DNA of 34,973 nucleotides from a virus (Duplodnaviria; Caudoviricetes). Within the stretch, counting starts at the first letter, position 1. Every line of letters starts with the position of its first letter. The notes below the pieces were generated by a model. The model was not told the origin of the DNA, made no database searches, and was given only the letters and a program-made list of their open reading frames with translations. Made by a program: the position numbers and the translations under genes. The stretch covers positions 1 to 34,973 of the IMG/VR virus record IMGVR_UViG_3300022670_000534, one strand, 5' to 3'. Shown piece by piece: positions 26,013 through 30,171 of the stretch.

Positions 26013-26049
26013 TGTGTAACCTCGTTAATGGTTAATCGTTACGAAAAGT

Positions 26050-26103
26050 TGAAATGCCAATCAGGGTAACGAATCCTGACTTTCCCGCGCTAACGGTAGG
26101 CAT
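26050..26103 (-). ncRNA. mini tRNA-like element (acceptor plus T-arm-like)
   Basis: ATGCCTA/TTGGCAT stem, CCG-TTAGCG-CGG hairpin, GTCAGG-ATTCGTTAC-CCTGAT arm, ending T-TCA. Confidence 0.4.
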
Positions 26104-26133
26104 AGTTTATTATACGTCAAAGGGACAATGCTG

Positions 26134-26481
26134 TTAAGCAGCAGTATCCAGTACTTTGACTGATTTTTCAGATAACCAGGTAACTAATGATTTAGAAAAC
26201 TCTTCAGTGCCGTATTTCTTAACCATTCTGGCGATGTTTTCCAAATTTGGGGCTGTTTTTGGATCATCTTCCATTTGGCGATAGGTTCGGCCTTTGAGGT
26301 ATCCGTAAGCGATATGGGTATCACGGGCTTCAGCTCGTAATGGGCCACGGCGATGGTCACGTAATGGGTTGGCAAGACTGCACCAGTTTTTACCTTTGAG
26401 TTTTAACTCTTGAGCACGGATAATTCGCGATTCAGCTGCGAGTGATTTTACTTTCATTTTTAATGCAAATAAGTTCAACAT
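26134..26481 (-). CDS. basic hypothetical protein
   Basis: 115 aa, R/K-rich, with an EARDTHIAYGYLKGRTY motif; flanked by tRNA-like elements. Confidence 0.75.
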   Translation of the reverse strand: MLNLFALKMKVKSLAAESRIIRAQELKLKGKNWCSLANPLRDHRRGPLRAEARDTHIAYGYLKGRTYRQMEDDPKTAPNLENIARMVKKYGTEEFSKSLVTWLSEKSVKVLDTAA

Positions 26482-26536
26482 AATATTTTCTCTACTTAAT
26501 GGAATAAATTAATTTTTGGTACTACTTCATTAAGGG

Positions 26537-26573
26537 TTAAGGTGGGTCTTTATTGCATTCAGGTGAATCGCAT
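26537..26573 (-). other. putative leader mini-ORF M-R-F-T-[UGAA]-C-N-K-D-P-P-stop
   Basis: AAGGAG-6nt-ATG; frame 0 stops at TGA (26561-26559); +1 frame continues TGC AAT AAA GAC CCA CCT TAA. Confidence 0.45.
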
Positions 26574-26598
26574 GTTGTTCTCCTTATGGTTAAATTAG

Positions 26599-26668
26599 TG
26601 GAGGCATTAAGCAGATTCGAACTGCTAAGGCTTGGGGTTGAAATCCCAGACTTCACCGATGTAATGCC
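26599..26668 (-). tRNA. non-canonical tRNA-like gene: no D-arm, 8-nt anticodon loop, encoded CCA
   Basis: GGCATTA/TAATGCC 7-bp acceptor, T discriminator, CCA; perfect T-arm AGCAG-TTCGAAT-CTGCT; TGGG-ATTTCAAC-CCCA arm; 70 nt. Confidence 0.75.
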
Positions 26669-27409: not shown

Positions 27410-27616
27410 TTATTGTTCGTTCTTTTCTTCTTTTGTGGAGGTCGTTTCAATTTCTTCAATATTCCAACCATAAGTATCAATCCCTAAATTCACTGAAAAT
27501 CTAACGATTATTATAACAAAGACAATGGATAATATGAAACAAAACACATTAGCTGCTTGAGAAAAATGTTCGTGTGAATGGGTTAACATAACTATCACCA
27601 AATAGTTGATCACCAA
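27410..27616 (-). CDS. small membrane protein
   Basis: One strongly hydrophobic segment; start uncertain. Confidence 0.45.
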   Translation of the reverse strand: MVINYLVIVMLTHSHEHFSQAANVFCFILSIVFVIIIVRFSVNLGIDTYGWNIEEIETTSTKEEKNEQ

Positions 27617-27617
27617 T

Positions 27618-27669
27618 TGAATGTAGTTGCCAGGCTCATTGGTGTTTAAGCTCTTCGGCGGCTAAGCCT
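27618..27669 (-). repeat. bipartite motif copy 1 (AGGCTTAGCCGCC...AACTACATTCA)
   Basis: Matches 34330-34380 (11/13 and 11/11 nt, spacing 28 vs 27 nt). Confidence 0.6.
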
Positions 27670-27682
27670 AGGCATACTTATA

Positions 27683-29415: not shown

Positions 29416-30171
29416 TCATAAAAATTCATGTTTTAAAATTGCTTCGCCTATCATTTTCGGTATTGCGGGTAATAATGAATTACCATATTGTTTTACTGCT
29501 CTACGTGCCAGCCTTGTGGGTATCCCATCACCCAACAATAGACTGAGGCAGTTTGTTTGCCATTCATTCCCGACATGTATGATTCTGTCGCCAAACTTGG
29601 CGTATGCCGTTCTTTTGACGCGTTGTAGGCTGAACCCTTCAAAGATACATCTTTGTGGTCTCTGGCATTTGGGGTAGGCAATAACCCAGACCCTATCTCT
29701 GTGATGGGGCGCGCCAAGTTCGGAAGCTGATATACAATGCCATTCTGCATCATACCCGACCTCGGCCAAGTTATAGAGAAACTGAGCAAACCATCGTCCT
29801 GATTCTCCAGTAAGCAAACCTGTGACATTTTCAAAGATTGCGTATCGTGGCAAACACTCGCTAATAATACGCAGCATTTGCCTGTATAAATTAGTTTTTT
29901 CTCCTTCGATACCACACCTATATCCCGCGACTGACACGTTTTGACAGGGGAATCCTCCACAAACAACGTCAATTGATCCTTTATATTTTTTTGCATCTAA
30001 AAGTCTCACATCTTTATATATTAATTTTTCGGGCCAGTGTTTTTTCAATACTTCCCTGGCATGCTTATCGAATTCACAAAAAGCGACTGTTTCAAACCCA
30101 TTGGTACTTTCTAGACCTAAACTAAACCCACCTATACCAGAAAATAAATCCAAAACTTTTAATTTATTCAT
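29416..30171 (-). CDS. C5-cytosine DNA methyltransferase, large (alpha) subunit
   Basis: Motif I LDLFSGIGG, IV GGFPCQ, VI FENV, VIII PHHRDRVW, X YGNS; no motif IX. Confidence 0.92.
   Translation of the reverse strand: MNKLKVLDLFSGIGGFSLGLESTNGFETVAFCEFDKHAREVLKKHWPEKLIYKDVRLLDAKKYKGSIDVVCGGFPCQNVSVAGYRCGIEGEKTNLYRQMLRIISECLPRYAIFENVTGLLTGESGRWFAQFLYNLAEVGYDAEWHCISASELGAPHHRDRVWVIAYPKCQRPQRCIFEGFSLQRVKRTAYAKFGDRIIHVGNEWQTNCLSLLLGDGIPTRLARRAVKQYGNSLLPAIPKMIGEAILKHEFL
29493..29996 (-). CDS. nested alternative-frame C5 methyltransferase small (beta) subunit
   Basis: 167-aa ORF wholly inside the MTase gene; LLPTPNARD and motif-IX-like CWVMGYPQGW. Confidence 0.7.
   Translation of the reverse strand: MQKNIKDQLTLFVEDSPVKTCQSRDIGVVSKEKKLIYTGKCCVLLASVCHDTQSLKMSQVCLLENQDDGLLSFSITWPRSGMMQNGIVYQLPNLARPITEIGSGLLPTPNARDHKDVSLKGSAYNASKERHTPSLATESYMSGMNGKQTASVYCWVMGYPQGWHVEQ

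What the first reader, a model, noticed from the sequence alone, without database searches (positions are those of the whole stretch)
26537..26585. Leader mini-ORF that needs a +1 shift at UGA to end in Asp-Pro-Pro-stop
Seen: ideal SD (AAGGAG, 6-nt spacing), ATG CGA TTC ACC TGA, and in the +1 frame TGC AAT AAA GAC CCA CCT TAA, ending 55 nt before the next gene. Known: Pro-Pro and Pro-stop contexts stall ribosomes, and prfB uses +1 shifting at UGA to sense RF2. Inference: a translation-sensing switch that controls the downstream gene. A recent 1-nt indel in an ordinary xPP-stop leader is the alternative.
Basis: partly seen in the sequence, partly recalled or inferred. Interest (0 to 1): 0.7.

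Follow-up and report, generated by a model that had tools for sequence, protein, structure and literature searches.

The report
Four-base tRNA gates phage gene
This phage puts an odd tRNA gene with a four-base anticodon right before a tiny leader whose UGA stop matches it, so the next gene is likely switched on only when that tRNA beats the release factor and shifts the ribosome by one base, which would be a natural regulatory use of four-letter decoding.

Summary
Thirteen bases upstream of the leader's SD lies a 70-nt tRNA-like gene (26599-26668) whose 8-nt anticodon loop centres on UUCA, the exact complement of the leader's UGA-A. This tRNA + leader + hairpin + 115-aa gene module recurs in diverged phages. 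A leader was scored at 69 of 79 distinct loci. All 54 leaders that need +1 have A after the stop. Loop size tracks frame (8 nt with +1, 7 nt with in-frame readthrough; 53 of 55), and anticodon tracks stop identity (56 of 57). A mostly independent check set agreed 12 of 12. Pro-Pro is conserved, usually as RGPP/RAPP/RSPP/RDPP; the stop after it is not (19 of 69). A hairpin that hides the next gene's ribosome-binding site usually starts at the prolines, but it is weak in this window. Best reading: a tRNA-versus-release-factor switch, not prfB-type slippage. Charging, decoding, stalling and the protein's job are untested. Earlier scan notes describe the in-frame amber form; I found no description of the four-base form.

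The parts
26599..26668 (-). tRNA-like gene, 70 nt: 7-bp acceptor stem, U73, encoded CCA, perfect 5-bp T arm, shortened D region, 4-bp anticodon stem
   Evidence: Sequence; fold; Rfam tRNA 19.9 bits, below the gathering score of 29; missed by ARAGORN at default settings; conserved in L001 and L100
26637..26644 (-). 8-nt anticodon loop; central UUCA (26642-26639) is complementary to the leader's UGAA
   Evidence: Fold of the arm gives 4 bp + 8-nt loop in 73% of the ensemble; 8-nt register has 4 pairs vs 2 for a UCA triplet register
26580..26585 (-). Shine-Dalgarno site of the leader (AAGGAG)
   Evidence: Sequence; GGAGAA kept in L001 and L100
26537..26573 (-). Leader mini-ORF M-R-F-T-[UGAA]-C-N-K-D-P-P-stop
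   Evidence: Translation with TGAA=X; family of 69 scored leaders
26558..26561 (-). Gate: UGA + A, the predicted four-base / +1 site
   Evidence: All 54 +1 leaders have A as fourth base (48 UGAA, 6 UAGA); in-frame leaders have G 7, A 5, C 3
26540..26551 (-). K-D-P-P predicted pause motif; the family consensus is R-[GASD]-P-P
   Evidence: Motif counts; PMC12992588 for RxPP arrest and the need for Arg
26495..26534 (-). Hairpin whose 3' arm covers the start of the SD-like site of the next gene; weak in this genome
   Evidence: MFE -5.8 kcal/mol, 17 of 200 shuffles as good; same hairpin in L001 and L100; RBS opening energy not above shuffles here
26134..26481 (-). Controlled gene: 115-aa basic helical protein of an unnamed family
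   Evidence: No PHROG or Pfam match; 3,614 clusters at 50% identity with E<=0.001; AlphaFold2 pLDDT 90, long helical hairpin plus small bundle

Best explanation
This is a three-part phage module (odd tRNA gene, stop-interrupted leader, hairpin-guarded gene) that likely works as a translational ON switch set by competition at UGA between the host's release factor 2 and the phage's own four-base-anticodon tRNA. Shown: the anatomy, its conservation, and the match between each leader's gate and its neighbouring tRNA. Inferred, step by step: (1) the tRNA is cut out and charged by a host synthetase, perhaps GluRS because the first three anticodon bases are UUC; (2) ribosomes start at the leader's SD/AUG; (3) if RF2 wins at UGA, M-R-F-T is released, the hairpin stays and the gene is off; (4) if the tRNA wins, UUCA pairs with UGAA, or reads GAA one base on, and the ribosome enters the +1 frame; (5) it pauses at xxPP, or runs into the 5' arm, opens the hairpin and frees the next gene's ribosome-binding site. 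The switch therefore reports active suppressor tRNA relative to release factor. The protein most likely feeds back on that state, as a tRNA- or ribosome-binding factor that limits or cleans up after readthrough; I give this last step about even odds.
For: Frame vs loop size: +1 with 8 nt 43, +1 with 7 nt 1, in-frame with 8 nt 1, in-frame with 7 nt 10, 2 ties left out; Fisher p 4e-9. Stop vs anticodon 39/1/0/17, p 1e-13 (57 of 69 leaders had a tRNA call). All four combinations exist: UGAA/UUCA, UAGA/UCUA, UAG/CUA, UGA/UCA. Check set of 18 loci not used, scored by script: 12 had both parts and 12 of 12 agree (L100 and L301 are close kin of training loci). Reverse test from the tRNA: with at least 900 nt of flank on both sides, 35 of 40 8-nt-register UUCA tRNAs have the gene nearby vs 3 of 27 ordinary Glu(UUC) tRNAs; ties 7 of 12. 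Gate classes are scattered on the protein tree (17 changes, shuffled mean 19.6). On the unresolved best tree 6-7 of 7 and 9 of 10 independent pairs go the same way and none the opposite way. RBS opening energy has median 11.5 vs 5.9 kcal/mol in shuffles; 37 of 69 exceed all 20 shuffles. 50 of 69 motifs are RGPP/RAPP/RSPP/RDPP, the set that arrests or partly arrests ribosomes in PMC12992588. The window's loop sides A32/A37/C38 are the variant enriched four logs in lab evolution of a UAGA-reading tRNA (PMC9094753); 9 of 43 natural 8-nt loops are of this type. The cultured phage NCTB has the UGAA leader and a UUCA tRNA 2.6 kb upstream.
Against: No RNA, ribosome or protein data. In this window the hairpin is weak: opening energy 4.2 vs 5.1 in shuffles, and it falls only to 1.8-2.7 with a stalled ribosome. 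The window's motif is KDPP. PMC12992588 finds Arg irreplaceable and the motif alone insufficient without an N-terminal region, so a strong arrest by this 11-residue peptide is doubtful. The D region is short in 27 of 44 8-nt tRNAs, so charging and EF-Tu delivery are uncertain. The 8-nt and the 7-nt Glu(UUC) registers are close in many tRNAs. Three discordant loci: L006 (8-nt CCUA loop, in-frame UAG), L033, L075 (UUUA loop). Only 1 independent pair lies on well-supported branches, so the formal phylogenetic test is inconclusive. The 69 leaders were picked by hand's candidates after I had seen one search's tRNAs. 10 of 79 distinct loci gave no scored leader. PMC5009743 notes that enlarged loops need not pair four bases.
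Confidence: 0.78

Rival explanations
1. prfB-like RF2 sensor: the P-site tRNA slips +1 at a slow UGA and host tRNA-Glu reads GAA; the neighbouring odd tRNA is incidental.
For: UGA followed by a +1 continuation; the +1 codon GAA is an ordinary Glu codon; 12 of 69 loci had no tRNA call within about 1.2 kb.
Against: No CUU or UUU before the stop in 54 +1 leaders. Frame and stop track the tRNA. Whole-record searches found the matching tRNA in 3 of 5 records that lacked a local call; the two blanks are 26% and 43% complete.
Confidence: 0.06
2. The odd RNA is an uncharged or non-decoding mimic that sits in the A site at the stop, or base-pairs with the leader, and blocks RF2; the ribosome then stalls or shifts without the RNA donating an amino acid.
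For: Short D region in 27 of 44, variable acceptor stems and discriminator (U 22, G 12, A 10 of 44); no clear synthetase identity.
Against: CCA is encoded in 33 of 43 8-nt tRNAs. 17 of 44 have a full-length D region. The xxPP codons lie downstream in the frame that loop size predicts, which needs peptide-bond formation past the stop.
Confidence: 0.08
3. Same decoding, but the output differs: the stalled ribosome represses, affects transcription or RNA stability, or the leader peptide itself matters.
For: Weak hairpin in this window; in 2 of 69 loci the stall footprint raises the RBS opening energy by more than 1 kcal/mol.
Against: The stall footprint lowers it by more than 2 kcal/mol in 59 of 69 (partly expected from blocking more bases). 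Occlusion exceeds shuffles family-wide. No terminator-like site lies between leader and gene on the minus strand. The peptide is not conserved outside xxPP.
Confidence: 0.06
4. Recent 1-nt indel or assembly error in an ordinary xPP-stop leader, or reinitiation at the AUG that overlaps the UGA.
For: An AUG overlaps the fourth base in this window.
Against: No gap in covering contigs. The same register holds in 54 leaders. 27 of 54 have no AUG there, and that AUG is not in the PP frame.
Confidence: 0.02

Closest known systems
prfB (RF2) programmed +1 frameshift
   Same: Competition between RF2 and a +1 event at an in-frame UGA sets expression.
   Different: No slippery CUU-U site; the shift is tied to a private tRNA; it sits in a leader and controls a separate gene; UAG versions exist.
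RAPP/RGPP arrest peptides (ApdA, ApdP, ApcA, SecM RAGP; PMC12992588)
   Same: Leader ORF with an R-[AGSD]-P-P core in front of the controlled gene; 50 of 69 family leaders.
   Different: The motif is hidden behind a stop codon. The peptides are mostly very short (11 residues here), with no secretion or membrane segment. This window has K instead of R. The paper's main text has no mention of phage, suppressor, frameshift or readthrough.
Leader-peptide translational attenuation (ermC, cat, secM-secA; recalled)
   Same: A ribosome on the leader opens a hairpin that hides the next ribosome-binding site.
   Different: The input is a stop-decoding tRNA, not a drug or secretion state.
Laboratory frameshift-suppressor / quadruplet tRNAs (sufG, qtRNA-TAGA; PMC9094753)
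   Same: 8-nt anticodon loop; UCUA/UAGA is the pair used in the lab; A32/A37/C38 loop sides.
   Different: These are wild-type, conserved genes with a matched target; many have a shortened D region.
Suppressor tRNAs of stop-codon-recoded phages (bioRxiv 10.1101/2021.08.26.457843)
   Same: Phage-encoded tRNA reading UGA or UAG; also seen in standard-code phages.
   Different: This genome reads well in the standard code (32 TAA, 15 TGA, 5 TAG ends of 52 ORFs). The only evident target is the leader, and decoding is +1.

Membership tests
prfB-type +1 frameshift site | Slippery P-site codon able to re-pair in +1 (CUU-U) | tested here: not met
   ACC in the window; 0 of 54 CUU/UUU, 1 GGG
prfB-type +1 frameshift site | Internal SD about 3 nt before the shift codon | tested here: not met
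   The only SD is the initiation SD, 18 nt before the UGA
prfB-type +1 frameshift site | The product is the release factor itself | tested here: not met
   The +1 frame ends in the leader; the next gene has no RF domain match in Pfam
RAPP-like arrest peptides | R-[A/G/S/D/P]-P-P core with invariant Arg | tested here: not met
   Window has KDPP; met in 50 of 69 family leaders
RAPP-like arrest peptides | Measured, EF-P-refractory arrest | not testable with these tools
   Needs toeprinting or reporters
Leader-peptide translational attenuators | Hairpin hides the downstream RBS and lies under the stalled ribosome | tested here: inconclusive
   Met family-wide (11.5 vs 5.9 kcal/mol); not above shuffles in this window (4.2 vs 5.1)
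Canonical tRNA (RF00005) | Acceptor stem, T arm, CCA | tested here: met
Canonical tRNA (RF00005) | Full D arm, 7-nt anticodon loop, score above the family cut-off | tested here: not met
   Short D region, 8-nt loop, 19.9 vs 29 bits
Quadruplet / +1 frameshift-suppressor tRNAs | 8-nt loop with four central bases complementary to the shift site | tested here: met
   UUCA vs UGAA; covariation
Quadruplet / +1 frameshift-suppressor tRNAs | Charged and shown to shift ribosomes | not testable with these tools
   Needs experiments
Stop-codon-recoded phages | Many genes interrupted by the recoded stop | tested here: not met
   Late genes are intact in table 11; TGAA=X repairs no broken gene

The most novel reading that the evidence does not exclude
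Many unrelated phages carry a wild-type tRNA that evolved to read a four-base stop-derived codon (UGAA or UAGA), and they use it as a private key that unlocks one gene. This would be a selected, regulatory use of quadruplet decoding in nature. The module also re-keys itself between four codon/anticodon pairs, and it serves as a sensor of release-factor shortage or suppression that drives a new termination/rescue factor.
Probability: 0.65. Interest if true: 0.93.

Novelty: categorically new. Interest (0 to 1): 0.87.

Why it matters
Four-base decoding is mostly known from lab mutants and engineered tRNAs. One review passage says the few natural tRNAs with odd loops, including a phage's, are not known to cause frameshifting (PMC5009743), and PMC9094753 expects natural ones to be rare. 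Here dozens of natural 8-nt-loop tRNAs come with their own matched test site, so the question can be settled with a simple reporter and codon/anticodon swaps. It would explain some suppressor tRNAs in standard-code phages and some tRNAs that are mis-called Glu, Arg or unknown. It supplies naturally tuned UGAA/UAGA tRNA scaffolds for code expansion, and it points to a large unnamed protein family (3,614 clusters) tied to translation termination.

Tried and rejected
Indel/assembly error: rejected. prfB slippage: rejected. Pro-stop as the conserved signal: rejected, 19 of 69. Genome-wide UGAA recoding in the window: TGAA=X only extends or fuses ORFs, and 7 of 52 ORFs end in UGA-A. Protein identity: no hit in PHROGs or Pfam (best E 0.006, one member), PDB sequences (best E 3.1) or Foldseek PDB (none at E<=0.001). 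BFVD gave only family members, VIA-align only generic coiled coils with Z<=7.3, and the ESM Atlas nothing at 0.9 or above; absence there does not show a new fold. Conserved downstream partner: none among 77 scanned ORFs, which were 77 of the 129 listed; PTH2 is limited to one subfamily. Independent-pairs test on supported branches: 1 pair, no power. No RNA holder listed. Promoter scan was at chance level. No complex prediction was obtained. The metagenome scan gave 2 loci, one spurious; L002 is also spurious. OLIVR1 gp84 is labelled 'putative structural protein', but the paper's main text has no gp84 or mass-spectrometry mention; I did not open its supplements. A recalled paper on mycobacteriophage tRNAs was not held, so the phage tRNAs with odd loops cited in PMC5009743 remain unidentified.

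Full report
Observation. The element is on the minus strand of a 35-kb phage record (97% complete), between a ninG-like gene and the packaging genes. The pattern occurs once in the window and 0.05 times per shuffled genome. Public contigs cover the leader without gaps, including two variant strains (X1 may be the source sample). Those variants and L001 lack the stop after Pro-Pro but keep UGA-A and Pro-Pro.

Thirteen bases before the SD ends a 70-nt tRNA-like gene (26668-26599). It has a 7-bp acceptor stem, U73, CCA, a perfect T arm and a shortened D region. ARAGORN misses it and Rfam scores it below the cut-off. Its anticodon arm folds as 4 bp with an 8-nt loop, whose central UUCA is the complement of the leader's UGAA.

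The family. I collected relatives through the downstream 115-aa protein. The 80 viral loci, four GenBank loci and the window make 85 entries. Five duplicates and one locus without upstream DNA were dropped, leaving 79. A leader (stop, then Pro-Pro within 13 codons; a start codon upstream in all but L008 and L071) was scored in 69; 10 gave none. I chose among the candidates by hand after seeing tRNA calls, and two near-duplicate pairs remain. Classes: UGA-A +1 48, UAG-A +1 6, in-frame UAG 14, in-frame UGA 1. A scripted tRNA call succeeded for 57. Frame matched loop size in 53 of 55 (2 ties left out) and stop matched anticodon in 56 of 57; the discordant loci are L006, L033 and L075. A scripted check on 18 further loci found both parts in 12, all concordant. 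Starting from the tRNA (one search stopped at 120 of about 130), 199 loci gave 144 distinct sequences, 107 of them tRNA-like, and 28 with short flanks were set aside. The gene lay nearby for 35 of 40 with the 8-nt register favoured, 3 of 27 ordinary Glu tRNAs and 7 of 12 ties; some of these contigs were already in the protein set. The classes are scattered over the protein tree, which suggests repeated joint switching. The tree is poorly resolved, however: supported branches give one independent pair, and the unsupported best tree gives 6-7 of 7 and 9 of 10 pairs in the same direction, none opposite. The gene is rare in cellular genomes (12 loci in the scan of 185,579 species genomes), and its neighbours vary, so it behaves as a mobile phage module.

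Output arm. The motif is RGPP 21, RAPP 11, RSPP 10, RDPP 8, TGPP 5, KDPP 3 and other 11 of 69. PMC12992588 (abstract, sections 7, 8, 15 and passages read) shows that RAPP and RGPP arrest strongly and RSPP and RDPP partly. It also shows that Arg cannot be replaced and that the core needs an N-terminal region. A hairpin from the prolines to the next RBS is predicted in most loci. The opening energy has a median of 11.5 vs 5.9 kcal/mol in shuffles, and 37 of 69 exceed all 20 shuffles. A ribosome footprint at the prolines lowers it by more than 2 kcal/mol in 59 of 69, though covering more bases lowers it in any case. The window is a weak member: KDPP, and an opening energy no higher than its shuffles (4.2 vs 5.1), although the hairpin recurs in L001 and L100. 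Here a pause, or simple passage into the 5' arm, is more likely than a hard arrest.

Mechanism. RF2 and the odd tRNA likely compete at UGA. Termination leaves the gene off; decoding shifts the ribosome +1, brings it to the prolines and frees the RBS. Whether four bases pair at once or the tRNA reads GAA after an offset cannot be told from sequence; PMC5009743 warns of this (passages, first 300,000 characters). The UUCA loop can also slide toward a Glu(UUC) register, which hints at its origin and at GluRS charging (inference). The window's A32/A37/C38 equals the lab-selected optimum for a UAGA-reading serine tRNA (PMC9094753 passages). That is suggestive only: 9 of 43 natural 8-nt loops have it and 24 have C32/A37/U38. 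Seven of 52 window ORFs end in UGA-A and no broken gene needs the tRNA, which fits a weak sensor tRNA rather than a code change.

The protein. It is basic and all-helical, with invariant Arg and Glu residues, and has 3,614 clusters. No function could be assigned. A gene turned on by readthrough most plausibly acts on readthrough or its aftermath. The PTH2-like neighbour in one subfamily and single cases of release-factor and RtcB neighbours lean that way, but they are few.

Novelty. Ten full-text searches listed nothing describing this module. Three of them, aimed at 8-nt or expanded loops, UGAA or UUCA in phage, returned zero papers (55, 57, 116). The library lacks most subscription journals. 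I read passages of bioRxiv 10.1101/2021.08.26.457843 (its supplements are closed and might list such tRNAs), PMC7609411, PMC5389517 and PMC10132094; none of the passages shown describes it. The prfB, ermC and secM mechanisms are recalled. Earlier scan notes describe the in-frame amber switch and a TTA-gated variant. They are unchecked AI notes except the latter; my 14 in-frame UAG loci agree with them, and I did not check whether they concern the same gene family. 'UGAA' met no finding, and searches showed no four-base version. What is new here is the four-base form, which is the majority form in my sample, and the loop-size/frame covariation.

Verdict. The module is real and conserved, and it likely works as a tRNA-gated translational switch (0.78). 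It works like leader attenuation and like prfB sensing but fails membership of both the prfB and the RAPP families. Interest 0.87.

Noticed in passing
window 26037-26106 (-) and 27611-27678 (-): Two sub-threshold matches to the Rfam int-alpA RNA (29.5 and 24.9 bits, cut-off 35.8). A similar element follows the gene in L001, before an RtcB gene.
   Followed up: no
L307/L308, L309/L310, L311, L312, L313, L315, L085: A divergent subfamily has a PTH2-like gene directly after the family gene (Pfam PF01981 E 7e-7 for L234, the same contig as L307; E 0.05 for L085; the others by likeness). L307 and L309 carry two tandem full-length UUCA tRNAs.
   Followed up: partly
L313 and L315, leaders about 100 nt before the gene: Related leaders with two in-frame stops each: both UAG in L313 and both UAA in L315. 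A weak UUA-anticodon tRNA lies about 14 kb away in L313's record; none was found in L315's 39%-complete record.
   Followed up: partly
L006 (OLIVR1) 1312-1388: The tRNA annotated as Val has an 8-nt CCUA-centred loop, but its leader reads UAG in frame; this is a discordant case.
   Followed up: partly
L003 about 1240-1325 and L301 (DLP5, Summit): An unannotated stem-closed element ending in CCA lies before the leader, while the CUA tRNA lies after the gene.
   Followed up: no
L008, L023, L069, L071, between tRNA and gate: The leader has no separate SD/AUG (L008, L071), its only start lies inside the tRNA (L023), or its AUG overlaps the tRNA's CCA (L069); tRNA processing might make a leaderless mRNA.
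   Followed up: no
L016, about 700 nt after the gene: An RF1/RF2-type release-factor gene (PCRF and RF-1 domains) and a SpoU methylase follow the module.
   Followed up: no
L123, L185, L247, L255, L276, L278, L282: Large-phage contigs with single or tandem UUCA-loop tRNAs and no family gene within 1.5 kb; they may gate other genes.
   Followed up: partly
window 29416-30171 and 29493-29996 (-): A 167-aa ORF is nested in another frame inside a 251-aa ORF that looks like a cytosine methyltransferase (motif recalled).
   Followed up: no
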